Source: Candidatus Nomurabacteria bacterium (GTDB lineage Bacteria > Patescibacteriota > Minisyncoccia > Phycocordibacterales > UBA9973). Taken from it: DNA of 64,000 nt. Location: contig CALQYS010000001.1 in the NCBI GenBank assembly GCA_943348755.1, positions 1,467-65,466 of the forward strand. The letters are read 5' to 3'. Shown here in pieces: positions 17,731 through 36,544 of the stretch (position 1 is its first letter; each line of letters begins with the position of its first letter). The translations under genes were made by a program, and so were the position numbers. The notes under the pieces were generated by a model. That model ran no database searches, was not told the DNA's origin, and saw nothing but the letters and a program-made list of their open reading frames with translations.

Positions 17731-19372
17731 AATTTGTACCGATTGTAAGGAAGAATTCATAATAAATTCTGGTGATTTAGATTTATACAAAAAAGTTGGG
17801 CTAGAGTTGCCGACTTCTTGTTTTCTTTGTCGAATAAAGCACTTATTTTCTTTTTGGACTTTTGGAAAATTTCGCAAAGGCAAGTCTGATCTCTCGGGGG
17901 AAAGTTTAATCACCGTCTTGCCGAAAAAGAGCCGATATCCTATTTATAAACTCTCCGAGTGGCATAGCGACAAATGGGATGCCATGGATTATGGAGCAGA
18001 TTACGATCCCAAAAAGTTATTTTTTGAACAATTTAAAAATCTTCAGGAAAAAGTACCCAGGCCGCATCAAAATGGCACTAAAAATACTGGTTGTGATTGG
18101 TCTGAGGATGTCTGGAGTTCCAAGAACTGCTATCTGTCACGTTCAATGTTGAACTGTGAAGATTTATTTTATTCATATAGAAATTTGAATGTAAAAAATT
18201 CTATTGATGTAGTAATTTGTTTTGATTGTGAAAAATGTTACAGCTCTGGAGAATGCCATAATTCATATAGACTTTTCTATTCAAGGCATTCTCGCGATTG
18301 TATAGATTCATATTTCCTTTACGACTGCCGCAATTGCCAGAATTGTTTCATGTCATGGAATCTTCGCAATAAATCTTATTGCATAGAAAATGTTCAGTAT
18401 TCCAAGGAAGCTTATGAGGAAAAATTGAAGTCTTTTAATCTGGGCTCTTATGAATCTGTCCAATCTTTAAAACGCCGTTTTGAACTTTTGGCGGGGGAGG
18501 AAGCAGTACATAGAGAGAATTTTAATTTGAATGCATCTAATTCGAGTGGCAATTATCTAATAGATGTTAAAAATTGCCAAAATTGCAATACTATATCGGA
18601 GTCTGAAGATTCTGCAAACTGTGTTCGTAATCTCGGATTGAAATCCAGCATCGATATTGTCGGTTCTCAGCATCCGGAATTATCAGGTAATTGTTGTTTT
18701 TGTCAGGGCAAAATATATTCTCTCAAATACTCTTTTGGGTCCACTTCTCGCTATTCCGAATATCTAGACTTATGCATAGAATGCGAATATTGCTTCGGCT
18801 GTGTTGGTCTCAAAAAGAAAAAATATTGCATTTTGAATAAACAATATACCGAAGACGAATACGAGGCGCTGAAAAATAAAATTATTGCGGAGATGAAGAA
18901 TAGGGGAGAATACGGTAAATTTTTGCCTTATTCCATGAGCGCCGGACCCTTCAATTTCTCTAACGGATTCTTTTATTTTCCGGAGACAAAAAAAGAAGAT
19001 ATCTTGAGACTTGGCGGATACTGGGAAGACATAGACGAAACTCACATAGAAGGCACTGCCACAAGTGAATTGCCCGATTCCATTTCTGATGTCGAAGATG
19101 ACATCACTACCAAAGCTCTTATCTGTCCTGAAACTGGCTGGCGTTTCAATATATCTCAAAACGAGCTTATTTTTTATAGAGAAAACAATATACCGTTACC
19201 TAGGTATCACTTTGACGTAAGGATAAAAAAGGCTCTAAAATATCTTACTGTTCTTCAATCATATCCATATAAATGTTTTTACTGCCAAAAAGATATAATG
19301 GCTTATTATCCACCAGAGTGGGGTTATAAGAAGATTGCTTGCGAGAATTGTTACAAACAAAATATAGCCTAG
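17699..19372 (+). CDS. Cys-rich zinc-ribbon repeat protein, family member B1 (divergent)
   Basis: CTDCKEEF..YKKVGLELPTSCFLCR N-terminus; W.SDKWD..DYG.DYD..K.FFEQ; duplicated K[SK]YCI.N.QY[ST]KE.YE; overlaps the grpE end by ~30 nt. Confidence 0.65.
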   Translation: MFMSTKKELSKICTDCKEEFIINSGDLDLYKKVGLELPTSCFLCRIKHLFSFWTFGKFRKGKSDLSGESLITVLPKKSRYPIYKLSEWHSDKWDAMDYGADYDPKKLFFEQFKNLQEKVPRPHQNGTKNTGCDWSEDVWSSKNCYLSRSMLNCEDLFYSYRNLNVKNSIDVVICFDCEKCYSSGECHNSYRLFYSRHSRDCIDSYFLYDCRNCQNCFMSWNLRNKSYCIENVQYSKEAYEEKLKSFNLGSYESVQSLKRRFELLAGEEAVHRENFNLNASNSSGNYLIDVKNCQNCNTISESEDSANCVRNLGLKSSIDIVGSQHPELSGNCCFCQGKIYSLKYSFGSTSRYSEYLDLCIECEYCFGCVGLKKKKYCILNKQYTEDEYEALKNKIIAEMKNRGEYGKFLPYSMSAGPFNFSNGFFYFPETKKEDILRLGGYWEDIDETHIEGTATSELPDSISDVEDDITTKALICPETGWRFNISQNELIFYRENNIPLPRYHFDVRIKKALKYLTVLQSYPYKCFYCQKDIMAYYPPEWGYKKIACENCYKQNIA

Positions 19373-19374
19373 AC

Positions 19375-21069
19375 ATGAAACCTGAAACAAAAAATTGTAA
19401 AAATTGCCAAAAAGATTTCGTAATCGAAGCTGAAGATTTTAATTTTTACGAAAAGATAAAAGTTCCACCGCCCACGTGGTGTTTCAAATGCCGACAGCAT
19501 AGACGTTATGCTTGGAGAAATGAGCGGAATCTTTACAGGCGTAATTGTGATCTGTGCGGTAAAAGCACGGTGACTATCTATTCTCCTAATAAGCCTTACA
19601 AAGTCTATTGCCATGAATGTTGGTGGGGAGACGGCTGGGATTTTACTTCATACGGACGGAATTTTGATTTTTCTCGTCCCTTTTTCGAACAATTTGCCGA
19701 ACTTCAGCATGAAGTACCCCGCATGGCGCTTTTAAACAAAAATAGCGTGAACTCAGAATACACAAATCACTCGGCGGACAATAAAAATGTCTATCTGACT
19801 TTTTCCTCTTTTGGTAGTGAGAATGTCATGTACAGTACTTGGGTTTTTTACTCGCGGGATTGTATGGACTGTAGCTTTATTTATGAAAAAGGGGAACGTC
19901 TGTATGAAACCATAGACTCTCGTTCTTGTTATCAGTGCCAGTACAGCCTGTTTTTGAAAGATTGCTCGTCTTGCTACTATTGTTACGATTGTCACGGATG
20001 TAACGAATGTTTTATGTCTTCTAACTTACGCAATAAAAGTTATGTATTTAAAAATAAACAATACACTCGCGACGAGTATCTAAAGAAGATGAAGGAATAT
20101 GAAATGTCCTCTTTTACCGTTCGCCAGGGTCTCGAAAAGGAATTTAAAGATATGCTAGAAAACATTTCTGTGCATCGTTACGTTTTGAGCGAGAGAAATA
20201 TAAACTCTATTGGATCTATGATTTTTGACTGTAAAAATGTGCTTCAGTCTTTTGAGGTGAACAAAGGAGAAGACCTTAAATATTTTTATGGAGGGCTTGA
20301 GGCTAAAAGCTGTATAGATGTGTATCATGCGGGGCTTAATTTGGAGCTTTGTTATGAACTCCATGGATGCACCCGTCTTTCAAACTGTCAATTTTGTCAT
20401 CTTTGTTATGATAATATGAACGTGATGTATTCTGATACTTGTCAGAATAGCCAGAATCTTTTTGGCTGCGTCTCTGTGAAAAAGGGGGAGTATATGATTT
20501 TTAATAAAAAATATTCTAAAGCTGATTATGAAGCTCTTAAAGAAAAGATTGTCGAGCATATGAAGCAGACAGGGGAGTACGGTGAATTTTTCCCGCCACA
20601 GATTGCCCCAGTGTATTATAATGAGACACAAGGGAACTTGTATATGCCGATGACCAAAGAGGAAGTACTAGCTAAGGGTTGGCATTGGGAAGATAATATC
20701 CTGGGAACTTTCGGCAAGGAAACTATTTCTAGTTCATCTATTCCAGACAAGATAGAAGATGTGCCAGATTCCTACCTCAATGAAATCTTTGCCTGCGCAG
20801 ACTGTTCAAAAAATTATAACATAACTAGAAACGAGCTACTTTTCTATCAAAAAGAGAATCTTCCATTTCCCAGAAAGTGTCCGAATTGCCGTTACAAGAG
20901 AAGGTTTGATCTGCGTCCAAAGAGAGAGCTCTGGCATCGCACTTGCATGTGCGATAAAAAGCACAAGAACCACGATGGGTCTTGTAAGGTCGAGTTTGAG
21001 ACATGTTATGCTCCCAACCGCACAGAAAAGATATACTGTGAGAAATGTTACCAGCAAGAAGTGTACTAA
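19375..21069 (+). CDS. Cys-rich zinc-ribbon repeat protein, family member B2
   Basis: MKPETKNCKNCQKDFVIEAEDFNFYEKIKVPPPTWCFKCR...; C-terminal CPNCRYKRR..LWHRTCMC..IYCEKCYQQEVY; 2-nt gap to B1. Confidence 0.7.
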   Translation: MKPETKNCKNCQKDFVIEAEDFNFYEKIKVPPPTWCFKCRQHRRYAWRNERNLYRRNCDLCGKSTVTIYSPNKPYKVYCHECWWGDGWDFTSYGRNFDFSRPFFEQFAELQHEVPRMALLNKNSVNSEYTNHSADNKNVYLTFSSFGSENVMYSTWVFYSRDCMDCSFIYEKGERLYETIDSRSCYQCQYSLFLKDCSSCYYCYDCHGCNECFMSSNLRNKSYVFKNKQYTRDEYLKKMKEYEMSSFTVRQGLEKEFKDMLENISVHRYVLSERNINSIGSMIFDCKNVLQSFEVNKGEDLKYFYGGLEAKSCIDVYHAGLNLELCYELHGCTRLSNCQFCHLCYDNMNVMYSDTCQNSQNLFGCVSVKKGEYMIFNKKYSKADYEALKEKIVEHMKQTGEYGEFFPPQIAPVYYNETQGNLYMPMTKEEVLAKGWHWEDNILGTFGKETISSSSIPDKIEDVPDSYLNEIFACADCSKNYNITRNELLFYQKENLPFPRKCPNCRYKRRFDLRPKRELWHRTCMCDKKHKNHDGSCKVEFETCYAPNRTEKIYCEKCYQQEVY

Positions 21070-21071: not shown

Positions 21072-22778
21072 ATGAAACCAAAAACAAAAAATTGTAAAAA
21101 TTGTAAAAAAGACTTCGTGATCGAAACTGAAGATTTTGATTTTTACGAAAAAATAAAAGTACCGCCGCCGACTTTTTGTCCAGAATGCCGAAGAGTTCGT
21201 CGTTTTGCGCAGACGAATGAAACTGTGCTTTACAAGCGCAAGTGTGACTTATCTGGTAAAGATATTTTCAGCATGTATCCGTCCGATGCGCCATTTCCAG
21301 TTTATGAAACCGACGTTTGGTACTCAGATCAGTGGGATCCTTATCAATACGGTCTAGATTTCGATGAAAATAGGCCATTTTTTGATCAATTTTTTGAACT
21401 TCAGAATAAGGTCCCGCGAATGTCTCTAGTGCGACAAGGCTTGGCGGTCAACAGTCCTTATGCTCATAGAGTCACGGACCCAAAAAATTCATATATGACT
21501 TTCCGGGCCTCCTATCCAGAAAATTGTTTGTTTGTTTACAACAGCAATTATTCTAAAGATTGCACTGACTCCAACTGGATTTTTAATTCAGAGCTGTGTT
21601 ATGAATGCGTAAATGTGCAAAATTGCTACAATGTGAAGTTTAGTCAAGAAGTCAAAGATTGTCGGGACTCCTCTTTTTTATACGCTTGTCGAAATTGTTC
21701 TGATTGTACCGCTTGCGTGAATTTGGTAAACCAAAAATACTGCATTTTTAATGAGCGTTATTCAAAAGAGGAATATTTTAAAAAATTGGCAGAATTAAGA
21801 ATAAATAGTCACTCGGGGATCTCCGAAATGGCAGAGAAATTAAATGTGTTTCGGAAGAAATTCCCACAGCGGGCGATCGTTTCAGTAAAATCAGAAGATG
21901 TCTCAGGCAACTGGTTTGCTGGATGTAAAAATGTGCATCAATCCTTTGACTGCATCAATGTCAAAGACGGCAAACATCTTTTCATGGTTTTTTCCGCTGA
22001 AGACTGCATGGATTATTATGAATGGGGCAATAAAGCGGAACAAATTTACGAATCAGTGAATTGTGGTCTGAACATCGCCCGGCTTTATTTTTGCAACCAG
22101 TGCTGGATGGGTGCGACTGACTTGTATTATTGTAATACCTGTCCCGGTGCTCGGAATTGTTTTGGGTGCGTAGGATTAAAGAAGGGGGAGTATTCGATAC
22201 TAAACAAAAAATATTCTAAAGAAGAATATGAGATTTTAAAAGAAAAAATAATAAAACAAATGCAAGAAATGCCATTTAAAGACAAAAGAGGCATAAGTTA
22301 TTCTTTTGGGGAATTTTTCCCCGAAATGTTTTCTGATTTTGCTTACAACGAGACTATTGCCAACGTCTTCTTTCCACTATCCAAAGATGAAGCTTTGTCT
22401 CGTGGCTATAAATGGAAGGATAAAGAGAAGAAGAATTACCAAGCCACTCTGAAGCCGAGCGATTTGCCGGAAACTATCGGGGAAGTGAAAGACTCCATTT
22501 TAAATGAAGTTATCGAATGTGAAGAAAAGGATGATCCAAATTCGGTCGGGGCTTTTCGAATCACTCAGAACGAATTAAATTTTTATCGGAAGATCGATTC
22601 GCCCTTGCCAAGAGCTTGCTTTGACATTCGCCATTTGCGTAGGATGAACAAACGTCCGAAACTTAAATTTCTCCGACGAAATTGTTCTAAATGCAGCTCA
22701 GAAGTAGAAACTATTTATGATAAAGATTACGCGCCGATAATTTATTGCGAGAAGTGTTATCAGCAAGAGGTATATTAA
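21072..22778 (+). CDS. Cys-rich zinc-ribbon repeat protein, family member B3
   Basis: MKPKTKNCKNCKKDFVIETEDFDFYEKIKVPPPTFCPECR...; C-terminal IIYCEKCYQQEVY; 2-nt gap to B2. Confidence 0.7.
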   Translation: MKPKTKNCKNCKKDFVIETEDFDFYEKIKVPPPTFCPECRRVRRFAQTNETVLYKRKCDLSGKDIFSMYPSDAPFPVYETDVWYSDQWDPYQYGLDFDENRPFFDQFFELQNKVPRMSLVRQGLAVNSPYAHRVTDPKNSYMTFRASYPENCLFVYNSNYSKDCTDSNWIFNSELCYECVNVQNCYNVKFSQEVKDCRDSSFLYACRNCSDCTACVNLVNQKYCIFNERYSKEEYFKKLAELRINSHSGISEMAEKLNVFRKKFPQRAIVSVKSEDVSGNWFAGCKNVHQSFDCINVKDGKHLFMVFSAEDCMDYYEWGNKAEQIYESVNCGLNIARLYFCNQCWMGATDLYYCNTCPGARNCFGCVGLKKGEYSILNKKYSKEEYEILKEKIIKQMQEMPFKDKRGISYSFGEFFPEMFSDFAYNETIANVFFPLSKDEALSRGYKWKDKEKKNYQATLKPSDLPETIGEVKDSILNEVIECEEKDDPNSVGAFRITQNELNFYRKIDSPLPRACFDIRHLRRMNKRPKLKFLRRNCSKCSSEVETIYDKDYAPIIYCEKCYQQEVY

Positions 22779-26806: not shown

Positions 26807-26889
26807 GGAGTGTCCGACGGGAATTGAACCCGCTTCTCTCAGTGTGCACGATCTTGAGTGCTTTGCCCTATAAGCTACGGAACACATCC
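26806..26889 (-). tRNA. tRNA-like gene with a canonical T-arm (GGGTTCAATTCCC), D-loop GG and encoded CCA, but an oversized 11-13 nt anticodon loop; identity undetermined
   Basis: Reverse complement reads ...TAGCTTATAGGGCAAAGC (4-bp D-stem)...CTCA-AGATCGTGCACAC-TGAG...GCGGGTTCAATTCCCGTCGGACACTCCA; acceptor pairs only if one U is bulged; no normal 7-nt anticodon loop can be drawn. Confidence 0.4.
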
Positions 26890-26993
26890 CGTGAAAGATC
26901 AAGCTTTTATGCTTACTAGAATTATATCACAAGAAATAAAAATTAATATAAAGTCTTGTTAGCAAAAAGTTGATTATATTGTATAATAACGAG

Positions 26994-29078
26994 ATGGAAT
27001 TGCCGGAAATACCTATAAATAAAGAGATAACATATCTTGGTATCACTACTTATCGGGACAAGAATCAGCTTTTTGGCATCAAGCGCAAGGATAGGCGCCA
27101 GCATGTTTATCTTCTTGGTAAATCCGGTACTGGTAAATCCGTGCTGATGTTCAACATGATCATCCAGAACATCAAGAATGGTGATGGAGTTTGTATGGTT
27201 GACCCGCACGGGGAAAATGTCGAAGCAGTTCTCTCCGCTATCCCTCCGCATCGCATCAAAGATGTCGTTTATTTTAATCCAGCTGACGCTGATCATCACA
27301 TCGGGTTCAACGTTCTTGAACTTATTGATCCGCAATACAAGCATTTGGTGGCTTCGGGGCTCATGGGTATTTTCACGAAGATCTGGGCGAATGCGTGGAG
27401 CGCCCGCATGGAATATATTTTGAATAATGCTATCTTGGCCCTACTCGATACTCCGGGTACGACTTTACTTGGAATTCCACGTATGCTTGTCGATAAGGAT
27501 TACCGCCAAAAAATAATTTCAAATTTAAAAGACCCGGTTATCAAGGCTTTTTGGGTCCACGAATACGAAGCTTGGCAAGATAAATTTAGAAATGAAGCGA
27601 TCGCTCCGATTCAAAACAAAGTCGGCCAGTTTTTATCTACTTCTATCATCCGCAATGTCGTCGGCCAGTCCAAAAGTACGATAAATATTTTTGACATGAT
27701 GAATGATGGCAAGATTTTCTTGGTGAACGTTTCCAAAGGGCGTATTGGTGAAGACAACTCTGGTCTCTTGGGGGGCATGATCATCACTAAAATCCAGCTA
27801 GCGGCCATGGAACGCGTGCGTATCCCCGAGGAATCCCGTAAAGACTTCTATCTCTTTGTAGACGAATTCCAAAACTTCGTCACCGATGCTTTCGCCGGTA
27901 TTTTATCTGAGGCTCGAAAATATAGACTGAATCTGACAGTGGCGCACCAATATACTGCCCAATTAGTCGTGGATAAAAGTTCTGCGGTGCGTGATGCGGT
28001 CTTCGGCAACGTGGGCACGACCATAGTCTTTAGAGTTGGTGCCGATGATGCAGAATTTTTAGAGAGTGAATTTGAGCCGGAATTTACCCCTCAAGATATA
28101 GTGAATTTGCCAAACTATAAGATTTATTTGAAATTAATGATCGACGGGGTCACTTCTCGTCCCTTTTCTGCTAAAACCTTGCCACCTCTTGTGAAAACTG
28201 GTGATAAAAAGATTGAAGAAGAAGTAATTAGATCTTCACGTGCTCTGTATTGTAGAAGCAAAGAAGTTGTAGAGAAAGAAATTAACGATTGGAGTGGGAT
28301 GTCGCTTGGCAATGAGTCTGATACTGGAAACAGCGTTTTAGAAAAATTCCCCGCAATTTGTTCATTTTGTAAAAAAGAAACGACCGTGCCCTTCAAGCCG
28401 GATCCAGGCCGAGCAGTATATTGTAAAGAATGTATTGCAAAGATAAAGTCTGGTGAGGTAAAAGTAGAAAAAAGTTCAGAAAATCAGATCAGACATGATG
28501 AAACCACCTTCTTCAGACCATTGGCTGATTTAGGTATAGAATTTAAACAAAATAATGGAACAAATGGAAACGGTGAGAGATATCCGCAAAGGGTGGACCA
28601 TCACATGGATAAACCTCATCCTGGGATGAAGAAATTTGTCCCTACAGCAACCAAGCCGGCGCCATTTTCGGCCAAGCCAGGGATTATCGGGGCTATTAAA
28701 AAAGTTTTCGTTAAAAGTGGGGTTTCAGCACCAGCCAAGGCTCCTGTTCCCAAAAAGCCAGCTAAAGATAATACTGAACTCAGAGAATTTTTAAATAAGA
28801 CACTAGCCGCAAACGCTCCCACCTCGACTCCGATTAGTAAGAGCGTCGTGAGTCCGGTAGTTAAAAATACTGGACCAGCGCCGGTTTCCTTAGACACTCT
28901 CAAAAACCCTGTGAAGCAGGCGGATAAAATAAACACATCTCCTAAGGATCGTGCTGCTAGTCCGGAAGATATGAATAAGTTGAAAGATTTAATCTCGTCC
29001 GCCTCTACTACAGGCTCCGGCGAGACAAAGAAGGTGAAAGAAGTGCCTGAAGACGTTCTGCGGAAAATTTTAGAATAA
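26994..29078 (+). CDS. FtsK/HerA-superfamily P-loop ATPase (DUF87/HerA- or TraD-like) with C-terminal ClpX-like C4 zinc finger and K/P/A-rich tail (ATPase 1)
   Basis: FGIKRKDRRQHVYLLGKSGTGKS (Walker A), VDPHGE, DFYLFVDEFQNF (Walker B), LNLTVAHQY; C-terminal CSFCKKETTVPFKPDPGRAVYCKECIAK; leaderless from TGTATAAT at 26980-26987. Confidence 0.75.
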   Translation: MELPEIPINKEITYLGITTYRDKNQLFGIKRKDRRQHVYLLGKSGTGKSVLMFNMIIQNIKNGDGVCMVDPHGENVEAVLSAIPPHRIKDVVYFNPADADHHIGFNVLELIDPQYKHLVASGLMGIFTKIWANAWSARMEYILNNAILALLDTPGTTLLGIPRMLVDKDYRQKIISNLKDPVIKAFWVHEYEAWQDKFRNEAIAPIQNKVGQFLSTSIIRNVVGQSKSTINIFDMMNDGKIFLVNVSKGRIGEDNSGLLGGMIITKIQLAAMERVRIPEESRKDFYLFVDEFQNFVTDAFAGILSEARKYRLNLTVAHQYTAQLVVDKSSAVRDAVFGNVGTTIVFRVGADDAEFLESEFEPEFTPQDIVNLPNYKIYLKLMIDGVTSRPFSAKTLPPLVKTGDKKIEEEVIRSSRALYCRSKEVVEKEINDWSGMSLGNESDTGNSVLEKFPAICSFCKKETTVPFKPDPGRAVYCKECIAKIKSGEVKVEKSSENQIRHDETTFFRPLADLGIEFKQNNGTNGNGERYPQRVDHHMDKPHPGMKKFVPTATKPAPFSAKPGIIGAIKKVFVKSGVSAPAKAPVPKKPAKDNTELREFLNKTLAANAPTSTPISKSVVSPVVKNTGPAPVSLDTLKNPVKQADKINTSPKDRAASPEDMNKLKDLISSASTTGSGETKKVKEVPEDVLRKILE

Positions 29079-29079
29079 A

Positions 29080-30741
29080 ATGAATCAAGAATGTAAAAAG
29101 TGCAAACAAAATTTCACCTTAGATAAAGATGATCTGTCTTTTTATGAAAAGATGAAAGTGCCGACACCCAAAGTCTGTCCAGACTGCCGTTTCAAAATGC
29201 GCGCGATGTTTCGCAATGAAACCACTCTTTACTCTGGGCGCAAATGCGCGCTTTGCGGTAAGGCACTGATTTCAATGTATAATCCGAAATCCCCATATAT
29301 TATTTACTGTCCAGACTGTTTTTATTCTGAAAAATGGGAGCCAAGAGACTATGCAAGAGACTATGATTTTAACAGGCCATTTTTAGAGCAAATGAAAGAA
29401 TTTCTACTGTCAGTTCCGAAAATAAGTCTATTCCTTAATTTTTCTGATGGCAAAAACGTGAATAGCGAATATTCGAATATGGCTGGAGGTCTCAAAAATT
29501 GTTATCTGGTTTTCAACACCAGTCCTGCGGAAGACTTGATGTATTCTAGGGGTATCCGGCATGGTAATGATTCATCGGATATATATTTTGGCACCAGTTT
29601 CGAGAGATGCTATGAGTGTGTGAATGTTCAACAATCTGCTGATATCCTATATGGTAAGAATATTACTGGAGGGGTGGATTGTGCTTTTGTTTCAAACTGT
29701 CGGGGGCTTACAAATTGCTTTGGCTGTGTAAATCTAAATAACAAGTCCCATTATTTCCTCAATGAGCCCATGGATGTAAAGGAATACAAAAAAAAGGTTT
29801 ACGAAATATTAGGCAGTTATAAAAAAACAGAAGAATTTAAAAAAGAATTTGGAAAATTTACACTTGGTTTCCCGGTACGAGAAAATAATAACATAAAAAA
29901 TGTTAATTCAACCGGAGATTATTTGTTTGAATGTAAAAATGTTCACGATTCCTTTGAGGCTGCCGGCGCAGAAGATTCCAAGTACCTGTTTTCTTCTAAA
30001 GGAGTTAAAGATTCCTTAGGCATTATCGGTTATGGCACACAATCAGAAAAATTACTCGAGGTTGTGGCTACAGGATATTCCAGCAACATAGTGGGTACGT
30101 ATGCCGCTGATAATTGCCGTGATATCTTGTATGGATTTTACGTCAAGAATTGTAAAGATTGTGTTGCTTGCGACGCTCTCAAAAACGGTAAATACTCAGT
30201 TTTTAATAAAGAATATTCCAAAGAAGAATATGAAAAAATTCGCGAACATATAATCAATGAGCTAAAAGAGAAGGATCTACATGGTCTTATGATGCCGCAA
30301 GAACTTGCCCCCTTTGCTTATAATGAAACAGTTGCACAGGAAAATTTTCCACTTACCAAAGAGGAAATATTGTCGCAGGGTTTCCGCTTCGAGGATGACA
30401 TACAAAAGACAGAAGGCAAAGAGACCATACAACCTCAGGATATTCCTGATCATATAAAAGATGTGTCAGATTCCATCACTACTGAGATTCTAGCTTGCAT
30501 AAATTGCAATCGTAATTATAAAATCACAGAGCAAGAGCTTTTATTTTACAAGAAAATGAATCTTTCGATACCAAGGAAGTGTTTCTATTGCCGACATCAA
30601 GATCGCATCATTCGTCGAGGGCCATATAAATTCTGGGATAGAAATTGCGCTAAATGTGGAAAGGGGATTACGACCAACTATGCCCCCGATCGGCCGGAAA
30701 TAGTGTATTGTGAAAAGTGTTATCAGCAAGAAGTGTATTAA
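29080..30741 (+). CDS. Cys-rich zinc-ribbon repeat protein, family member C1
   Basis: MNQECKKCKQNF..FYEKMKVPTPKVCPDCR; C-terminal CFYCRHQDRIIRRGPYKFWDRNCAKC...YAPDRPEIVYCEKCYQQEVY; starts 1 nt after the ATPase 1 stop. Confidence 0.7.
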   Translation: MNQECKKCKQNFTLDKDDLSFYEKMKVPTPKVCPDCRFKMRAMFRNETTLYSGRKCALCGKALISMYNPKSPYIIYCPDCFYSEKWEPRDYARDYDFNRPFLEQMKEFLLSVPKISLFLNFSDGKNVNSEYSNMAGGLKNCYLVFNTSPAEDLMYSRGIRHGNDSSDIYFGTSFERCYECVNVQQSADILYGKNITGGVDCAFVSNCRGLTNCFGCVNLNNKSHYFLNEPMDVKEYKKKVYEILGSYKKTEEFKKEFGKFTLGFPVRENNNIKNVNSTGDYLFECKNVHDSFEAAGAEDSKYLFSSKGVKDSLGIIGYGTQSEKLLEVVATGYSSNIVGTYAADNCRDILYGFYVKNCKDCVACDALKNGKYSVFNKEYSKEEYEKIREHIINELKEKDLHGLMMPQELAPFAYNETVAQENFPLTKEEILSQGFRFEDDIQKTEGKETIQPQDIPDHIKDVSDSITTEILACINCNRNYKITEQELLFYKKMNLSIPRKCFYCRHQDRIIRRGPYKFWDRNCAKCGKGITTNYAPDRPEIVYCEKCYQQEVY

Positions 30742-30744
30742 ATA

Positions 30745-32490
30745 ATGAAAGAAGAAACGAAAAATTGTCAAAACTGTAAGAAAAATTTCGTAATCGAATC
30801 GGAAGATTTTAATTTTTATGAAAAAATGCAAGTTCCACCACCGACTTTTTGCCCAGAGTGTCGGCTGATTCGCAGATTTATCTGGAGAAATGAAAGGAAT
30901 TTATACAAAGACGTTTGTGAACTTTGTAAAAAAAATATAATCTCAGTTTATGCCCCCGAGAGTCCTTATGTGGTCTATTGTCCAGATTGCTGGAAGGGGG
31001 ACGGTTGGGACCCCATCAGTTATGGGCAGGATTATGACTTCTCAAAACCATTTTTTGAACAATTTAATGAATTGTTAAAAAAAGTTCCCCGATCTGCTTT
31101 TCATCAGACCAATGTTATCAATAGTCCCTATGCTAATTATTCAGAGGATATAAAAAATGTCTATCTTTCTTATTCGATTATTCACGAATGCGAAAATGTC
31201 TTTTATTCTAGACTGGTTGATCATTCAAAACAAATTTTAGATTGTTGTGACTTGAGTTATTCAGAGATATGTTATGAAAACGTGAGTTGCAAAAAGAATT
31301 ATAATACTAATTTTGCCTATTTTTCTCGGAATGTCATAGACTCTACGTTTGTATATGATTGTATAAATGTATCGAACTGTTTTCTTTGTACAAATTTACG
31401 CAATAAGCAGTATTGTTATAAAAACAAACCCCATTCTAAGGAGGAATATTTAAAGATCATAAAAGATTATAATCTGGGTTCTCGTGATGGCCTGGATAAG
31501 GCAAAGAGTGAGTTCAAGGAACTGTACAGTCATGCCATACATCGTTTTACTCACCTTATCAATACGACAGATAGTACGGGGGAAAATCTGTATAATTGTA
31601 GGAATGTTAAATATTCTTTTAATGTGGATGATGGTGAAAACTCCAAGTATATTTTTCGTTCTCCCAGCGTTAAGGATTCGATGGATTCTTCACATTTGGG
31701 TGGGTCAGAACAAGTGTATGAGTATATGAATGGGGGAGCTACAGGTAGTCAATTCTTAAAATTTTGCATTAATTTAAAGCCAGCCAATAACAATGTAGAA
31801 TACTCAGATTATTGCGGTTCTGTTTCTAATGTATTTGCTTCTACTGGTGTCAGAAATAAAAAATACATTATTTTTAATAGGCAATATGAAAAGAAAGAGT
31901 ATGAAGCCCTTGTTTTAAAAATCAAAAGTCACATGGACGAAATGCCCTATGTGGATAAGAGGGGTAGGATATACAAATATGGAGAATTTTTCCCTAGTGA
32001 GCTTTCACCTTTTGCTTATAATGAAACTTTGGCTCATGAATATTTTCCTAAAAACAAAGATGAAATTGAATCAATGGGTTTTCGTTTTAGAGAAAGGGAA
32101 AAACGGAGTGAAATAAAAGCTATAAGCGCACAAGCGATCGGATCAAATATCAATGAAGTTTCTCCAGAAATCACTGATGAACTTATCGCTTGCGACAATA
32201 ATGGTAAAGAAGAAACACTCTGCACTTTTGCCTTTAAAGTATTACCAGACGAGTTTGCTTCCTATAAAAAAGCTAATTTACCCATACCAACTAAATGTCC
32301 TAATTGTCGTTATTTTGAACGTACCAAATTTGTTAATCCTCTTAAACTTTGGCATCGATCTTGCATGTGCTCCCAAAAGAGTCATAATCATAAAGAAGGG
32401 AGGTGTTCTAATGAATTTGAAACGAGCTATGCGCCAGACAGGCCCGAAATAATCTATTGTGAACGTTGTTATCAGCAGGAAGTTTACTAA
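30745..32490 (+). CDS. Cys-rich zinc-ribbon repeat protein, family member C2
   Basis: MKEETKNCQNCKKNFVIESEDFNFYEKMQVPPPTFCPECR; C-terminal CPNCRYFER..LWHRSCMC..YAPDRPEIIYCERCYQQEVY. Confidence 0.7.
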   Translation: MKEETKNCQNCKKNFVIESEDFNFYEKMQVPPPTFCPECRLIRRFIWRNERNLYKDVCELCKKNIISVYAPESPYVVYCPDCWKGDGWDPISYGQDYDFSKPFFEQFNELLKKVPRSAFHQTNVINSPYANYSEDIKNVYLSYSIIHECENVFYSRLVDHSKQILDCCDLSYSEICYENVSCKKNYNTNFAYFSRNVIDSTFVYDCINVSNCFLCTNLRNKQYCYKNKPHSKEEYLKIIKDYNLGSRDGLDKAKSEFKELYSHAIHRFTHLINTTDSTGENLYNCRNVKYSFNVDDGENSKYIFRSPSVKDSMDSSHLGGSEQVYEYMNGGATGSQFLKFCINLKPANNNVEYSDYCGSVSNVFASTGVRNKKYIIFNRQYEKKEYEALVLKIKSHMDEMPYVDKRGRIYKYGEFFPSELSPFAYNETLAHEYFPKNKDEIESMGFRFREREKRSEIKAISAQAIGSNINEVSPEITDELIACDNNGKEETLCTFAFKVLPDEFASYKKANLPIPTKCPNCRYFERTKFVNPLKLWHRSCMCSQKSHNHKEGRCSNEFETSYAPDRPEIIYCERCYQQEVY

Positions 32491-32526
32491 AATAAATCTA
32501 TGCTATGGCGTAGATTAAAAAAGACA

Positions 32527-34269
32527 ATGCACCAAGAAGAAACGAAAAATTGTCAAAATTGTAAGAAAAATTTCGTAATCGAATCGGAAGATTTTAATTT
32601 TTATGAAAAGATAAAAGTTCCGGCACCGACTTGGTGTCCGGAATGTCGAGCCATGCGCAGATTGATCTGGCGCAACGAACGTTCTCTCTATCACAACACC
32701 TGTGCTTTTTCTGGCAAAAATCTTATATCCATGTTTTCTCCGGAAACTAAATTAGTGATGTACGATCATGACATTTGGTGGAGCGATAAATGGGATCCGC
32801 TTACTTATGGACAGGATTATGATTTTTCTAGGCCATTTTTCGAACAATACAAAGAATTGTTGCAACGAGTACCACTTATGAATTTGGGCAATATAAATTG
32901 CTTACAAGGCGAATATGGCAATCACAATACTGATTGCAAAAAATTTTACTTAGCCTATGCATGTTATGGAAGTGAAAATATTTCTTATAGCCAAGGAACG
33001 GTGGGTGTGAAAGACTCTATAGATCTTTATACCGTAATGAAGTCAGAAAAGTGTTATGAAAATGTAACATGCACTGGCCTTTATCAAACCCATTTCAGCT
33101 ATGACAGTGATGATTCCATCGACTCTGCTTTTTTGACTTGTTGCATAAACTTACAAAATTGTTTGGGTTGCATCAATCTTCGCCATAAAAGCTATTGTAT
33201 TTTCAATAAGCAATATTCGAAGGCTGATTATGAAAATGAACGAGCCAAATATGATTTTGGAAGTTATCAGGCTTTAGAAAATTTCAAAGAAAAATATAAT
33301 GATTTTATTAAAACCGAACCTAGGCGATTTGCTAGTATTTTAAAGTCTACAAATGTAACTGGTGACAATATTATAAATTCAAAAAATAGTAAAAATATTT
33401 TTGATGTTTATGGTGATGTTGAGGATTCAAAATATGTAGCTCATGTGATGGATCTGAAAGATAGTTATGATTTATATGGTGGGGGAATTGCCTCTCTTTT
33501 ATATGAAGGTGTTGACGAAGGCGTCGATGCTTTTAAGCAGTTTTTTGGTCTCCTTACCCACAGCTGTCTCGAAACTAACTATACTTATATGTGTTACGGC
33601 TCCGAATACTTGTTCGGCTGCATTGGGCTTAGAAACCAAAATCACTGTATTTTGAATAAAAAGTATTCTAAAGAGGAATACGAAAAACTAATGCCGAAAA
33701 TGATTGAACACATGAATACCGTGCCTTACGTCGACAGTCTCGGCAGAATTTACCGATATGGAGAATTTTTCCCCACTGATTTATCTCCGTTTGCTTATAA
33801 CGAAACAATTGCGGGTGAGTATTATACTTTAAACAAGAAAGAGGCGAAAGGTTATGGTTTCAAATGGAAAGAGAAAGAGGAAAGGGATTACAAAATAGAA
33901 ATTAAAACTGAAAATCTGCCAGACCATATCAAAGAAGTTGATGAAAGTATTATTGGTAAAATTATCGGCTGTTTACATAAGGGCGAATGCGAAGAGCAGT
34001 GTACTGAGGCATTTAAAATATTGGATTCAGAGTTCCAATTTTATAAAAAAAATAATTTTGCGCTTCCAAGGCTCTGCCCAAATTGCCGTCACTTTCAGAG
34101 ATTAAAAAAGAGGAATCCGATAAAGCTTTGGCATAGGTCTTGTATGTGCGAAAAGCAAGGACATTTTCATGGTCAGGAAAAGTGCGAAGTGCAATTCGAA
34201 ACTAGCTACGCGCCAGACCGTCCGGAAATAATATATTGCGAGAAATGTTATCAGCAGGAAGTGTATTAG
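32527..34269 (+). CDS. Cys-rich zinc-ribbon repeat protein, family member C3
   Basis: MHQEETKNCQNCKKNFVIESEDFNFYEKIKVPAPTWCPECR (5' ~80 nt nearly identical to C2); C-terminal IIYCEKCYQQEVY; an alternative upstream start exists at 32500. Confidence 0.7.
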   Translation: MHQEETKNCQNCKKNFVIESEDFNFYEKIKVPAPTWCPECRAMRRLIWRNERSLYHNTCAFSGKNLISMFSPETKLVMYDHDIWWSDKWDPLTYGQDYDFSRPFFEQYKELLQRVPLMNLGNINCLQGEYGNHNTDCKKFYLAYACYGSENISYSQGTVGVKDSIDLYTVMKSEKCYENVTCTGLYQTHFSYDSDDSIDSAFLTCCINLQNCLGCINLRHKSYCIFNKQYSKADYENERAKYDFGSYQALENFKEKYNDFIKTEPRRFASILKSTNVTGDNIINSKNSKNIFDVYGDVEDSKYVAHVMDLKDSYDLYGGGIASLLYEGVDEGVDAFKQFFGLLTHSCLETNYTYMCYGSEYLFGCIGLRNQNHCILNKKYSKEEYEKLMPKMIEHMNTVPYVDSLGRIYRYGEFFPTDLSPFAYNETIAGEYYTLNKKEAKGYGFKWKEKEERDYKIEIKTENLPDHIKEVDESIIGKIIGCLHKGECEEQCTEAFKILDSEFQFYKKNNFALPRLCPNCRHFQRLKKRNPIKLWHRSCMCEKQGHFHGQEKCEVQFETSYAPDRPEIIYCEKCYQQEVY

Positions 34270-35012
34270 ATTTTATAGACTGCACGATATGTGGCAATGA
34301 TGGCAGCGGTTTCTCCACGTAGGGTTAAGTTGCCAAGAGATGCAGGTGTGTAGCCATGCTCTTTTGCTAGTGTAATTTCTTTTTCTGTGAATCCACCTTC
34401 GGGTCCGATAAAAATATTTACCGAACTTGCTTCTAGGCCTGGCGCATAGTCTTTGGTGTTTTTATCCGTATGGAAAATAATTTTTTCTTCAGCCTCTCCA
34501 TTTATTGCTTCAGAAAAATCAAAAATTTCAAACAATTCCGGCAAAGTGGCGCGGCCGCACTGTTCGCTCGCTTCTAGAATTATCTTTTCTAAGCGGGGAA
34601 TGTTGAGCCCTGTTTTTATCGTACGTTCAGTAATTATAGGTGTAATAGTTGATACTCCGCACTCTACTGCTTTTTGTACAGCTAATTCAAAATTTTCCTT
34701 CTTCAATATTGCTAAATATAAATTCACTTTTCTTGCCTCGCTGAAGCCTTCGGTGGAAGCGGGCCCGTTTGTTCTACTAGCTTTTCCAATGATTGTATCA
34801 TTAGATAAGAATTCTAAAGTAATTTGAGCTTCCTTTCCTTTACCGTCAGAAAGCGTGATCTGATCTCCTTTTTCTAATCTCAAAACAGACCTTATTTGCT
34901 TGATTGTTTTAGGGTCAGTTATGGCCACTTCTTCCTTTGAGATATCGTATTCTCCAATAAACCTGTGTATTTTCATAATGAACATGATACACATTTCCCA
35001 TTGAGTAATCAA
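34266..35012 (-). CDS. rsmE: 16S rRNA (uracil1498-N3)-methyltransferase RsmE
   Basis: N-terminal PUA-like fold (HRFIGEYDI...IRSVLRL.KGD), C-terminal SPOUT motifs (IFIGPEGGFTEKEI, LGNLTLRGETAA). Confidence 0.8.
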   Translation of the reverse strand: MITQWEMCIMFIMKIHRFIGEYDISKEEVAITDPKTIKQIRSVLRLEKGDQITLSDGKGKEAQITLEFLSNDTIIGKASRTNGPASTEGFSEARKVNLYLAILKKENFELAVQKAVECGVSTITPIITERTIKTGLNIPRLEKIILEASEQCGRATLPELFEIFDFSEAINGEAEEKIIFHTDKNTKDYAPGLEASSVNIFIGPEGGFTEKEITLAKEHGYTPASLGNLTLRGETAAIIATYRAVYKI

Positions 35013-35041
35013 TAAATAACTGCTAAAATGACGGTATCTAT

Positions 35042-36544
35042 ATGCCCAAGCCTAATCGAGTGCAAATAATCAAATACGGACCGCCGCCGCCAGAATTGCC
35101 CGTCTTTGGCAAGGTAAAACCAGAAGAGGTTTCTTTCATTGGGCGTACCAACTATGTGGCTTCTCTTGAGGAGAAGAAATTTATTTTCGGTATTAAACGT
35201 GTAGATCGTAGGCGTCACCTTTACATCATTGGCAAGTCCGGGGTGGGAAAAACGAAACTACTTGAACTGATGCTTCGCCAAGACGTGGCTTATGGTCACG
35301 GACTCTGCTTGATTGATCCGCATGGAGATGTGATCGATGCGATGCTAGATTATATACCAAAAGAAAGAATCGAAGATGTTTGCATCATAGACCCTACCGA
35401 CATTAACTTTCCTTCCTCTTTTAATCCACTTGCAAATGTGGACCCGATGTTCAAGTTTCAGTTGACCCAAGGCCTTATCGAAGTTTTCCAGAAGCAATTC
35501 GGCGCCAACTGGACGCCTCGCTTGGAGCACGTTTTTCGTTTTACTTGTTTGGCGCTGCTCGACTATCCGCATGCGACGATGCGTGGGATGATCTCGATGC
35601 TGACAGATAGAAATTATAGACAGAAAGTGGTGGAATATATAACAGATGACATGGTGAAAAGATTCTTCGCTATTGAATTTGCCGACTGGTCCGAAAAGTT
35701 CGATACTGATGCCATCATTCCACTGGTGAACAAACTCGGACAGTTCTTGTCCGACCCCTTACTCCGTAACATTTTCGGTCAGAAGCAGAACAAAATAGAC
35801 ATCAGTAAACTTATGAACGAACAGAAGATAATTTTGATCAACCTTTCGAAGGGTCGTCTCGGGGAAGAAAATTCTTCTTTCTTGGGTTCTATATTCTTAA
35901 CCAAAATAAAACAAGCAGGGATGGAACGTGCCGCTATACCTGAGAAAGATCGGTTAGACTTTTACCTATATGTAGATGAGTTTCAGAACGTTGTTACGCA
36001 GACTTTCGAGAACATCCTTTCAGAAGCCAGAAAATATGCCTTGAATTTGACTATCGCGCATCAGTATGTCGGTCAGATTATTCCCAGGGTTCATCAAGCG
36101 GTGCTAGGTAATTGCGGTAGTGTTATCACCTTTCGTGTTGGTGGTGAAGATGCAGTTAAAATGAAACCAGAGTTCGCCCCTCTTTTCGATGTAAAAGACA
36201 TGATAAATCTTGCAGTCGGGGAAATATATGTAAAAATGACCATTGATGGCGAGTCTTATGACCCCTTTTCAGCTGAAACTCTCCGGGTTCTTCCTCCGAC
36301 TCATCCATCATATAGAGAAGAAATCATTGATTCTTCTCGTCGAAAATATTCTATACCAAAGGACGATGCGGCGAAACTGATTGCTGCAGAAGAGGCGACC
36401 ATTATCCGCAGTGCGGAAGAAAAGGCTATTATTGAGGGAAAAACAAAGAAGAGAGACCAAGAGGAAAACGAATCTGATGATCAAGAAGATGGGGAAGAAA
36501 AACCAAAAGCAAAAACTTCACAAGAAGCTGAGCCTATGATTTAG
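35042..36544 (+). CDS. FtsK/HerA-superfamily P-loop ATPase (DUF87/HerA- or TraD-like), paralog of ATPase 1, acidic C-terminal tail (ATPase 2)
   Basis: FGIKRVDRRRHLYIIGKSGVGKT, IDPHGD, DFYLYVDEFQNV, LNLTIAHQY; promoter TTGAGT-N17-TAAAAT upstream. Confidence 0.75.
   Translation: MPKPNRVQIIKYGPPPPELPVFGKVKPEEVSFIGRTNYVASLEEKKFIFGIKRVDRRRHLYIIGKSGVGKTKLLELMLRQDVAYGHGLCLIDPHGDVIDAMLDYIPKERIEDVCIIDPTDINFPSSFNPLANVDPMFKFQLTQGLIEVFQKQFGANWTPRLEHVFRFTCLALLDYPHATMRGMISMLTDRNYRQKVVEYITDDMVKRFFAIEFADWSEKFDTDAIIPLVNKLGQFLSDPLLRNIFGQKQNKIDISKLMNEQKIILINLSKGRLGEENSSFLGSIFLTKIKQAGMERAAIPEKDRLDFYLYVDEFQNVVTQTFENILSEARKYALNLTIAHQYVGQIIPRVHQAVLGNCGSVITFRVGGEDAVKMKPEFAPLFDVKDMINLAVGEIYVKMTIDGESYDPFSAETLRVLPPTHPSYREEIIDSSRRKYSIPKDDAAKLIAAEEATIIRSAEEKAIIEGKTKKRDQEENESDDQEDGEEKPKAKTSQEAEPMI

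What the first reader, a model, noticed from the sequence alone, without database searches (positions are those of the whole stretch)
26994..36544. Candidate undescribed system: two paralogous FtsK/HerA-superfamily ATPases bracketing a tandem triplet of giant Cys-rich zinc-ribbon proteins
ATPase 1 (26994-29078) is followed by three tightly coupled ~550-590 aa Cys-rich paralogs (1-36 nt gaps). An inward-facing rsmE and a second ATPase paralog (35042-36544) lie downstream. Both ATPases have the HerA/DUF87-like core: G-K-S-G-[TV]-G-K-[ST] Walker A, DPHG[ED], hhhhDEFQN Walker B and AHQY. In known bacterial systems HerA-like ATPases pair with Sir2 or DUF4297 nucleases. TraD/VirD4-like ATPases pair with T4SS genes. 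Neither partner type is present here. The partners are instead non-secreted zinc-ribbon/Cys-repeat proteins with conserved termini. This could be an ATPase-driven handling system acting on proteins or nucleic acids, a defence module or a substrate family. I do not recognise this architecture as described.
Basis: partly seen in the sequence, partly recalled or inferred. Interest (0 to 1): 0.9.

Follow-up and report, generated by a model that had tools for sequence, protein, structure and literature searches.

The report
Orphan coupling-type ATPases flanking zinc-ribbon solenoid genes
In a group of ultra-small bacteria (Paceibacteria), two soluble motor ATPases of the type that normally feeds secretion machines are almost always encoded on either side of a variable array of unstudied zinc-binding, beta-solenoid proteins, so these proteins are the first candidate partners for ATPases whose role was unknown.

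Summary
ATPase 1 (26994-29078) and ATPase 2 (35042-36544) are 45% identical. Neither has a transmembrane segment. Both belong to the VirD4/VirB4/DptH branch of the FtsK-HerA superfamily, closer to type IV coupling proteins than to HerA.

Three tightly packed Cys-rich paralogs lie between them. Each has a pair of zinc fingers at both ends and a hexapeptide-periodic beta-solenoid in the middle. The window holds seven such paralogs, not three.

In 37 of 44 informative metagenomic loci chosen by ATPase 2, a Cys-rich gene lies within 1.2 kb. The array (0-4 genes) always lies between the two ATPases, in either gene order. Only about a third of Cys-rich arrays touch an ATPase, so the family is much larger than the module.

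ATPase 1 always carries the same CxxC-x17-CxxC finger that ends the Cys-rich proteins. A 2025 survey reported about two orphan T4CP homologues per Patescibacteria genome and suggested they had taken on another function. It named no partner.

Function is inferred only. My preferred model is a coupling-type receptor/motor acting on a diversified client or cargo family (confidence 0.35). Defence is unlikely.

The parts
26994..29078 (+). ATPase 1 (694 aa). A soluble T4CP-like P-loop ATPase core (about aa 1-430), then a CxxC-x17-CxxC treble-clef zinc finger, then a basic disordered tail of about 200 aa with short conserved motifs.
27117..27140 (+). Walker A motif of ATPase 1 (GKSGTGKS, residues 42-49).
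   Evidence: Read directly from the translation. Invariant in alignment A4.
28344..28442 (+). zf_Tbcl_2 / CxxC-x17-CxxC zinc finger of ATPase 1 (aa 451-483).
   Evidence: PF23477 43.5 bits (threshold 27) and TIGR04272 46.5 bits (threshold 36). This domain type binds zinc in M. mazei small proteins (PMC12704099).
29080..30741 (+). Cys-rich paralog CysA (553 aa), 1 nt after the ATPase 1 stop codon.
   Evidence: CysA-type orthologues (mean 67% identity) directly follow ATPase 1 in 16 of 38 loci.
30745..32490 (+). Cys-rich paralog CysB (581 aa). Layout: two zinc ribbons, a beta-solenoid, an alpha/beta region, then two zinc ribbons.
32500..34269 (+). Cys-rich paralog CysC (589 aa). The second zinc site is partly degenerate.
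34266..35012 (-). rsmE (16S rRNA U1498 methyltransferase). A convergent passenger gene present in only some related loci, so probably not part of the system.
   Evidence: Pfam and NCBIfam matches. Present in some loci and absent in others.
35042..36544 (+). ATPase 2 (500 aa). A soluble T4CP-like ATPase with an acidic C-terminal tail, extremely conserved.
   Evidence: 45% identical to ATPase 1. 85-95% identical across 120 listed protein clusters. Pfam DUF87 and TrwB_AAD_bind above threshold. No transmembrane segment.
17699..19372 (+). Cys-rich paralog CysD, the most divergent one. CysD-type orthologues directly follow ATPase 2 in the alternative gene order.
19375..21069 (+). Cys-rich paralog CysE.
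21072..22778 (+). Cys-rich paralog CysF.
4246..6024 (+). Seventh Cys-rich paralog CysG (592 aa, 39 Cys), inserted between the DUF8128 gene and yceG.
   Evidence: tblastn, 43.5% identity to CysB over the full length. More distant genomes have DUF8128 directly followed by YceG.
2914..4224 (+). DUF8128-family membrane-anchored protein (436 aa, one N-terminal transmembrane helix). A possible extra component on weak evidence.
   Evidence: In 14 or more loci the order is SigL-DUF8128-c7-ATPase 2-Cys(n). In L049 and L081 DUF8128 directly precedes ATPase 1. The PF26449 assignment comes from precomputed hits on homologues. No fusions to the ATPase were seen among the 150 best of 1,753 representatives.

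Best explanation
This is a conserved gene module of the Paceibacteria. Two paralogous, soluble ATPases of the coupling-protein type (VirD4/TrwB/VirB4 clade) bracket a variable-size array from a very large lineage-specific protein family. Each family member has a zinc-finger pair (zf_Tbcl plus CxxC-x17-CxxC) at each end and a fast-evolving, hexapeptide-periodic beta-solenoid in the middle.

The mechanism I think most likely (inferred, not shown) is as follows:
- The two ATPases form a ring-shaped receptor/motor, possibly made of both paralogs.
- As canonical type IV coupling proteins and T7SS EccC do, this motor recognises a conserved terminal module on a diversified set of client proteins. Here that module would be the zinc-finger-bearing termini of the Cys-rich proteins.
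- The motor uses ATP either to hand the clients to an export route (for example the patescibacterial T4SS encoded elsewhere) or to remodel or unfold them.
- The CxxC-x17-CxxC finger of ATPase 1, the same domain type that ends every client, would be the docking or competing element.
- The clients next to the ATPases are the 'core' ones. The many unlinked paralogs would be further clients, much as PE/PPE genes relate to ESX loci.

Shown: the genes, the domain make-up, the conservation of the linkage, the absence of transmembrane segments, and the fold class.
Inferred: oligomerisation, physical interaction, direction of action, and export.
For: 1. Linkage seen from the ATPase side.
- 37 of 44 informative ATPase 2 loci have a Cys-rich gene within 1.2 kb.
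- The array lies between the two ATPases in the order dnaK-ATP1-Cys(0-4)-ATP2-dnaJ, where Cys is upstream of ATP2 in 22 of 30 loci.
- It also lies between them in the order ATP2-Cys(0-4)-ATP1, where Cys is downstream of ATP2 in 13 of 14 loci.
- A third context, SecDF-SigL-DUF8128-c7-ATP2-Cys(n), also keeps the pairing.
- dnaJ and rsmE adjacency are lost between arrangements, but Cys adjacency is kept.

2. In the 25 alternative-order loci, the ATPases (25 of 25) and the Cys-rich family (24 of 25) are the only near-universal gene families.

3. In the window, ATP1-CysA-CysB-CysC have gaps of 1, 3 and 9 nt. A hairpin terminator after dnaK sets this unit apart.

4. ATPase 1 orthologues all carry PF23477. 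The same finger type ends the Cys-rich proteins.

6. The termini of the Cys-rich paralogs are more conserved than the solenoid: 41-49% against 25-33% identity. The extreme C-terminus, YCExCYQQEVY, is nearly invariant. The family is multi-copy and turns over quickly, with up to 12 tandem copies in L030.

7. PMC12102498 reports 5,713 VirD4-type homologues in 2,918 Patescibacteria genomes, only 148 of them near virB4, and raises a change of function.
Against: - There is no direct evidence of interaction, oligomeric state or export.
- The ATPases lack the N-terminal membrane anchor that defines canonical T4CPs. No channel genes lie nearby in the window.
- Four structural zinc sites make a poor substrate for a translocon that needs unfolded proteins.
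- The clients have no signal peptide and no known secretion signal.
- About two thirds of Cys-rich arrays are not next to an ATPase. 11 of the 41 loci that hold both ATPases have no Cys gene between them.
- The gene orders share ancestry, so they are not fully independent tests.
- According to PMC12102498, the t4cp homologue of Ca. Southlakia epibionticum was not essential for epibiotic growth.
- T4CP homologues occur across Patescibacteria. The named Cys-rich hits are all from Paceibacteria-type lineages.
- The ATPase 1 model is of modest quality (pLDDT 60.7).
Confidence: 0.35

Rival explanations
1. A nucleic-acid-handling machine. The ATPases are DNA (or RNA) translocases like TrwB, FtsK or DptH. 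The Cys-rich proteins, with a zinc-finger pair at each end of a rigid solenoid spacer, are nucleic-acid-binding loaders, bridges or specificity factors, for example for DNA uptake or processing in organisms that scavenge nucleotides.
For: The closest structural relatives include the DNA-dependent motors DptH/DndH, TrwB, HerA and FtsK. Treble-clef and CxxC-x17-CxxC fingers resemble TFIIB-type ribbons (PMC12704099). ATPase 1 has a long lysine- and proline-rich basic tail (pI 9.0). ATPase 2 is about as conserved as DnaK, which fits a core nucleic-acid function.
Against: No nuclease, relaxase, recombinase or recognised DNA-binding fold is in the module. It is hard to explain 7-12 or more fast-diverging paralogs per genome for a core DNA transaction. 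The proteins are near neutral (pI 6.1-7.5), not basic.
Confidence: 0.2
2. No functional coupling. The interval between the two ATPase genes is simply a tolerated site for expansion or insertion of a proliferating gene family. The adjacency is inherited synteny within one bacterial class.
For: Two thirds of arrays lie elsewhere, including inside conserved operons: between ftsW and murG in L003, and between DUF8128 and yceG in the window. The number (0-4) and the paralog type between the ATPases vary. 11 of the 41 two-ATPase loci have no Cys gene between the ATPases. The gene orders can be derived from one another by a single relocation of ATPase 2.
Against: Adjacency is 84% from the ATPase side. 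It is kept while dnaK, dnaJ and rsmE adjacency is lost. It extends to Staskawiczbacteria-labelled genomes (L081). The stop-to-start spacing is tight. ATPase 1 and the family share the PF23477 finger.
Confidence: 0.2
3. Metal (zinc) buffering or trafficking. The Cys-rich proteins store or buffer zinc or other divalent metals, and the ATPases load, unload or remodel them.
For: Each protein has 28-39 Cys, with runs such as CxxCxxCxxCxxC in some paralogs. In the alternative arrangement an Nramp transporter lies divergently upstream of ATPase 2, and CutA1 sits inside the module in 14 of 25 loci.
Against: Only the four terminal zinc sites and a few solenoid cysteines are conserved; the other Cys positions vary. 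No Nramp or CutA homologue was found in this window. FtsK-HerA ATPases have no known role in metal handling. The Nramp and CutA adjacency is limited to one arrangement.
Confidence: 0.07
4. An anti-phage or anti-plasmid defence system of the HerA, DptH or MADS type, with the Cys-rich proteins as sensors or effectors.
Against: ATPase 2 is 85-95% identical across many genomes, and the gene pair appears to be near-universal. It sits among housekeeping genes, not in a variable island. There is no nuclease, Sir2, methyltransferase or other effector domain. NCBIfam HerA_antiphage scores 17.9 bits against a cut-off of 800. The Cys-rich family has no homologues in the phage collection.
Confidence: 0.05

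Closest known systems
Type IV coupling proteins (VirD4 / TraD / TrwB / DotL)
   Different: No N-terminal transmembrane domain. No linkage to relaxase or T4SS genes (PMC12102498). Scores are far below the curated TraD/VirD4 cut-offs (47 against 366 bits). Two paralogs are always paired. One carries a zinc finger and a 200-aa basic tail. The partners are a zinc-ribbon/beta-solenoid family.
Orphan T4CP homologues of Patescibacteria (PMC12102498, Microb Genom 2025)
   Same: About two VirD4-type homologues per genome, almost never near virB4, with a suggested change of function. This fits the ATPase 1 / ATPase 2 pair. That they are the same proteins is my inference, not checked protein by protein.
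   Different: The paper's main text does not mention zinc, DnaK or any partner family. The conserved flanking of a Cys-rich array, the PF23477 finger on one paralog and the lack of transmembrane segments are reported here.
Type VII secretion: EccC ATPase with adjacent Esx/PE/PPE substrates and many dispersed paralogs
   Different: There is no sequence relationship between the client families. No EccB, EccD or EccE-like genes were identified. The ATPases have a single domain and are soluble. This is an analogy only.
HerA-family systems (HerA-NurA; HerA-Sir2 / HerA-DUF4297 defence)
   Different: There is no room for a HAS-barrel N-terminal domain, because the P-loop starts at residue 42 or 64. 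No nuclease or Sir2 partner is present. HerA_antiphage scores 17.9 against 800 bits. The genes are housekeeping-like in conservation.
Cys-rich beta-helix proteins (insect antifreeze proteins, left-handed beta-helix hexapeptide proteins)

Membership tests
Type IV coupling protein (VirD4/TraD/TrwB) | FtsK-HerA-type nucleotide-binding domain with Walker A and Walker B motifs | tested here: met
Type IV coupling protein (VirD4/TraD/TrwB) | All-alpha domain inserted in the nucleotide-binding domain | tested here: met
   TrwB_AAD_bind scores 40.6 and 25.3 bits (threshold 20.5). The AF2 model has an all-helical insert at about residues 113-237, but at modest confidence.
Type IV coupling protein (VirD4/TraD/TrwB) | N-terminal transmembrane anchor | tested here: not met
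   The maximum 19-residue Kyte-Doolittle hydropathy is 1.13 (ATPase 1) and 0.97 (ATPase 2). The P-loop begins at residue 42 and 64 respectively.
Type IV coupling protein (VirD4/TraD/TrwB) | Encoded with, or functionally tied to, a relaxase or T4SS (VirB4 and channel genes) | tested here: not met
   No such gene was found among the window ORFs scanned. No further conserved ATPase or channel family appears in the 25 alternative-order loci. PMC12102498 finds only 148 of 5,713 homologues near virB4. Whether a T4SS lies elsewhere in this genome was not testable.
Type IV coupling protein (VirD4/TraD/TrwB) | Reaches the curated NCBIfam TraD/VirD4 cut-offs | tested here: not met
   SXT_TraD scores 47 against 366 bits. 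conju_CD1115 scores 45.7 against 250 bits.
HerA helicase / HerA-based defence | HerA central (DUF87) domain | tested here: met
   PF01935 scores 30.6 and 27.1 bits (threshold 23.2). This is a generic domain shared with VirB4 and T4CP-like proteins.
HerA helicase / HerA-based defence | N-terminal HAS-barrel domain | tested here: not met
   Only 41 or 63 residues precede the P-loop, which is too short for a HAS barrel.
HerA helicase / HerA-based defence | Adjacent nuclease, Sir2 or DUF4297 partner, and curated HerA_antiphage score | tested here: not met
   No such domain is found in the module. NF042943 scores 17.9 against 800 bits.
CxxC-x17-CxxC / zf_Tbcl_2 (PF23477, TIGR04272) | Two CxxC pairs 17 residues apart that match the model above threshold | tested here: met
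   ATPase 1 aa 451-483 scores 43.5 bits (threshold 27) and 46.5 bits (threshold 36). All 120 listed orthologues carry PF23477.
CxxC-x17-CxxC / zf_Tbcl_2 and zf_Tbcl (PF13451) in the Cys-rich proteins | Model match above threshold at the N- and C-termini | tested here: inconclusive
   All hits are below threshold: 20.8 and 21.4 bits against 27, and 19.1 against 24. Only 9 and 12 of 52 members hit at E of 0.01 or better. However, the cysteine quartets are invariant or nearly so and are modelled as zinc ribbons at pLDDT about 90.
Left-handed beta-helix / antifreeze-type beta-solenoid | Hexapeptide-repeat sequence family membership | tested here: not met
DUF8128 (PF26449), for window 2914-4224 | Match to the Pfam model | not testable with these tools
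   The model is absent from the local Pfam copy. The assignment rests on precomputed hits on homologues P0408 and P0496, found with the window protein as query.

The most novel reading that the evidence does not exclude
The soluble T4CP-like pair is the substrate receptor of a previously unrecognised protein-delivery or protein-handling pathway in Paceibacteria, perhaps working with the membrane proteins DUF8128 and c7. The zinc-ribbon-capped beta-solenoid family, with thousands of members and up to a dozen tandem copies per genome, would be its diversified cargo. That would make it an analogue of PE/PPE-ESX or XVIPCD-VirD4 used for interaction with hosts by ultra-small symbionts.
Probability: 0.15. 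Interest if true: 0.85.

Novelty: new variant of a known kind. Interest (0 to 1): 0.62.

Why it matters
Patescibacteria (CPR) make up a large share of bacterial diversity. How they interact with hosts is largely unknown.

A 2025 survey found about two VirD4-type ATPases per genome that are not linked to the T4SS. It could only suggest that they had taken on another function. The results here supply a concrete and testable partner for them:
- a very large, unannotated protein family with an unusual architecture (zinc-finger pair, beta-solenoid, zinc-finger pair), with no Pfam model above threshold across it and no whole-chain PDB match;
- this family takes up about 19% of the 64-kb window;
- it is encoded between the two ATPases in most genomes examined.

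If the link is functional, it defines either a new client class for coupling-type ATPases or a new job for them. It would also give a function to thousands of 'hypothetical' proteins. Even if the link is only positional, the family is still a striking lineage-specific expansion in genomes that are otherwise minimal.

Tried and rejected
- Sequence searches of the PDB. ATPase 2 alone gave no hit. A profile gave only the TrwB P-loop at E = 5.6e-4. CysB gave nothing meaningful. DUF8128 gave nothing.
- Foldseek of the CysB model against the PDB found nothing. The afdb50 library was unavailable.
- PADLOC gave only weak mad8, HerA and DndH hits for the ATPases and none for the Cys-rich proteins. I rejected defence because of the extreme conservation and the housekeeping context.
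- I looked for a fusion of DUF8128 to the ATPase among 1,753 representatives. None appeared in the best 150. The shared 'GPPxxLP' motif at the DUF8128 C-terminus and the ATPase N-termini therefore remains an unexplained resemblance.
- Distant ATPase homologues on plasmids of Sulfitobacter, Embleya and Bacillus had no informative neighbours.
- The phage collection has no Cys-rich homologue.
- The 1.5-kb spacer before ATPase 1 is not conserved in any other locus. This applies to its small Cys-rich ORF and to two further small spacer ORFs tested. I judge it unrelated to the module.
- Literature searches for the family returned nothing relevant. The terms were cysteine-rich with Patescibacteria or CPR, DUF8128, and CxxC-x17-CxxC.
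- A mobile-element reading of the Cys-rich genes was considered. There is no room for terminal repeats: CysG is 21 nt from its upstream neighbour and overlaps the downstream one. There is also no transposase or nuclease domain.

Full report
**1. What is in the window**

- ATPase 1 is at 26994-29078 (+). The public gene call gives 694 aa.
- It is followed at gaps of 1, 3 and 9 nt by three Cys-rich ORFs: 29080-30741 (553 aa), 30745-32490 (581 aa) and 32500-34269 (589 aa).
- A convergent rsmE lies at 34266-35012 (-).
- ATPase 2 is at 35042-36544 (+).

The quoted motifs are in the translations: GKSG[TV]GK[ST], DPHG[ED], VDEFQN and AHQY. The two ATPases are 45% identical over 436 aa.

The organism is a member of the Patescibacteria/CPR, of the Paceibacteria/Nomurabacteria type.
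- The window is part of a 185-kb ENA metagenome contig.
- All named homologues come from Paceibacterota, Nomurabacteria, Parcubacteria or Minisyncoccia.
- The surrounding genes are housekeeping: bipA, a sigma-like gene, yceG, mnmA, alaS, rpoA, dnaK, dnaJ, cysS, dnaB and a shikimate pathway cluster.

**2. Corrections to the observation**

The triplet is not the whole story. tblastn finds seven paralogs in the 64 kb. The additional ones are at 4246-6024, 17699-19372, 19375-21069 and 21072-22778. They are 31-47% identical to each other and together take up about 12 kb.

The family is very large. More than 6,368 of the 8,000 scored candidates are significant, and every one that carries a name is 'hypothetical'.

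**3. The ATPases**
- *Family matches.* Pfam places both above threshold in TrwB_AAD_bind and DUF87. ATPase 1 is also above threshold in T4SS-DNA_transf and TraG-D_C. NCBIfam gives only far sub-threshold TraD/VirD4 hits.
- *Topology.* Neither protein has a hydrophobic segment, and the P-loop starts at residue 42 or 64. There is therefore no T4CP membrane anchor and no room for a HerA HAS barrel.
- *Extra domains.* ATPase 1 carries a CxxC-x17-CxxC finger (PF23477/TIGR04272, above threshold) and then a basic disordered tail. All 120 listed orthologues have the finger. ATPase 2 ends in an acidic tail.
- *Conservation.* ATPase 2 is 85-95% identical across the 120 best protein clusters. In the same loci that is about the level of DnaK (78-91% in most of them).

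**4. The Cys-rich proteins**

The AF2 model of CysB is good (pLDDT 82.5, pTM 0.84). It shows these parts in order:
- two N-terminal zinc ribbons (C8/C11/C36/C39 and C58/C61/C79/C82) with a short helical region, at pLDDT above 90;
- a central beta-solenoid in two halves (about 116-230 and 265-375, pLDDT 60-70);
- an alpha/beta region;
- two C-terminal zinc ribbons.

The N-terminal pattern 'FxIxxxExxFYxKxxxPxPxxCxxCR' recurs near the C-terminus. The architecture is therefore zinc-finger pair, solenoid, zinc-finger pair.

The termini are more conserved than the solenoid. Between window paralogs they are 41-49% identical, against 25-33% for the solenoid. The last residues, YCExCYQQEVY, are nearly invariant. 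There is no signal peptide or transmembrane segment.

**5. Is the linkage conserved?**

*From the Cys-rich side (genome scan).* In 79 loci, 31 of 97 arrays (69 of 210 genes) touch an ATPase 1- or ATPase 2-like gene. Many arrays have none, for example 12 tandem copies in L030 and 8 in L029. One copy sits between ftsW and murG in L003.

*From the ATPase 2 side (metagenome scan).* In 80 loci, 37 of the 44 with enough flanking sequence have a Cys-rich gene within 1.2 kb.
- In the clade at least 83% identical to ATPase 2, the order is dnaK-ATP1-Cys(n)-[rsmE]-ATP2-dnaJ.
- In the 72-80% clade, the order is ATP2-Cys(n)-ATP1.
- In both, the array lies between the two ATPases. The number of genes between them is 0 (11 loci), 1 (15), 2 (10), 3 (2) or 4 (3).

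A third context, SecDF-SigL-DUF8128-c7-ATP2-Cys(n), also keeps the pairing.

De novo clustering of ORFs in the 25 alternative-order loci shows that only the ATPases (25 of 25) and the Cys-rich family (24 of 25) are near-universal. The next most frequent families are CutA1 (14), an LTD secreted protein (11), a cytidylyltransferase (10) and Nramp (8).

The paralog directly after ATPase 1 is CysA-type in 16 of 38 cases. The one directly after ATPase 2 is CysD-type in 7 of 32. Orthology is thus partly conserved, with turnover.

The arrangements can be related by moving ATPase 2, so they are not fully independent. Even so, Cys adjacency persists where dnaK, dnaJ and rsmE adjacency does not.

**6. 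Literature**

PMC12102498 (Microb Genom 2025) reports 5,713 VirD4-type T4CP homologues in 2,918 Patescibacteria genomes. Only 148 are near virB4. It notes that the homologue in Ca. Southlakia epibionticum was not essential for epibiotic growth, and suggests a change of function. Its main text does not mention zinc, DnaK or any partner family.

I infer, but did not verify protein by protein, that ATPase 1 and ATPase 2 are the Paceibacteria representatives of those homologues.

The CxxC-x17-CxxC domain binds zinc in M. mazei small proteins (PMC12704099). Searches for the Cys-rich family and for DUF8128 found nothing.

**7. Interpretation**

*Shown:* a conserved module of two soluble T4CP-like ATPases around a variable array from a huge family of zinc-ribbon-capped beta-solenoid proteins, with a shared finger type on ATPase 1.

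*Inferred (confidence 0.35):* the ATPases act as a coupling-type receptor/motor on the conserved termini of these proteins. The proteins would be diversified clients, or cargo for export or remodelling. The closest analogies are T4CP with effectors that carry a conserved C-terminal domain, and EccC with Esx/PE/PPE.

*Against this:* there is no membrane anchor, there are no nearby channel genes, stable zinc sites are awkward for translocation, and most paralogs are unlinked.

*Rivals:*
- nucleic-acid handling with the zinc-finger proteins as adaptors (0.2);
- positional linkage without function (0.2);
- metal buffering, hinted at by Nramp and CutA1 in one arrangement (0.07);
- defence (0.05), which is disfavoured by the extreme conservation and the housekeeping context.

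**8. Verdict**

It is an undescribed conserved association, but the ATPase half belongs to a known (orphan) kind, and 'HerA-like' and 'defence' are the weaker labels. The function remains untested.

Noticed in passing
window 25430-26990: A 1.5-kb spacer between dnaK and ATPase 1 with GC 0.42-0.45, above the window mean. It starts with a strong bidirectional hairpin terminator at 25436-25467. The small ORFs tested from it have no counterpart in any of the 160 or so related loci, where the dnaK-ATP1 gap can be as short as about 140 bp.
   Followed up: partly
window 26809-26883 (-): A tRNA-like element. It scores 31.2 bits against Rfam tRNA (threshold 29) and has a 13-nt anticodon-loop region. 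ARAGORN finds no tRNA anywhere in the 64-kb window. It may be a degenerate or unusual tRNA. A public gene call (135 aa, minus strand) overlaps it and looks spurious.
   Followed up: partly
window 26538-26741 (+): A small ORF of 67 aa with 12 Cys (CSKC...CPKC...CKKC...CKC), just upstream of ATPase 1. It is not found in any other locus (tblastn), so it may be spurious or strain-specific.
   Followed up: yes
window 1872-4224 (+); loci L049, L071, L081, L134, L146, L149, L152-L162: A sigma70-region-4/HARE-HTH protein (1872-2900) and a membrane-anchored DUF8128 protein (2914-4224) form a conserved pair. In many genomes it is followed by a small transmembrane protein (c7) and then ATPase 2 and Cys-rich genes. 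In distant genomes it is followed directly by yceG-mnmA. The DUF8128 C-terminus (…SKKxGPPxGLxIFG) resembles the N-termini of the ATPases (GPPPPELPVFG).
   Followed up: partly
window 22779-25428 and 37509-38594: dnaK and dnaJ are separated by the whole ATPase/Cys-rich module plus a pfkB-family kinase. A PaaX_M-domain (Cas2-like) regulator is divergent from dnaK. In the other clade dnaK and dnaJ are about 1 kb apart and the module lies elsewhere (L134).
   Followed up: partly
loci L013, L039, L056, L058, L135, L137, L139, L144: In the ATP2-Cys-ATP1 arrangement, an Nramp divalent-metal transporter lies divergently upstream of ATPase 2. In many of these loci CutA1 and/or a small cytidylyltransferase sit inside the module, and a secreted lamin-tail-domain protein follows ATPase 1.
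   Followed up: partly
L030 (JALLOO010000001.1), L029, L003: Extreme local expansion of the Cys-rich family: 12 tandem copies in 21.6 kb (L030) and 8 in 15 kb (L029). A single copy is inserted between ftsW and murG in the cell-wall cluster of L003.
   Followed up: no
window 47187-57003: An aromatic amino-acid pathway cluster: anthranilate synthase, EPSP synthase fused to shikimate kinase, DHQase fused to shikimate dehydrogenase, DAHP synthase, DHQ synthase, chorismate synthase, and prephenate dehydrogenase/dehydratase. This is notable for a CPR genome, since CPR usually have little biosynthetic capacity.
   Followed up: no
plasmid hits H1-H10 (e.g. NZ_CP081110.1 99994-101181): Soluble, short T4CP/DUF87-like homologues of ATPase 2 (27-38% identity) occur on plasmids of Sulfitobacter, Embleya and Bacillus that are mostly typed non-mobilizable. 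The two neighbourhoods inspected show no T4SS genes.
   Followed up: partly
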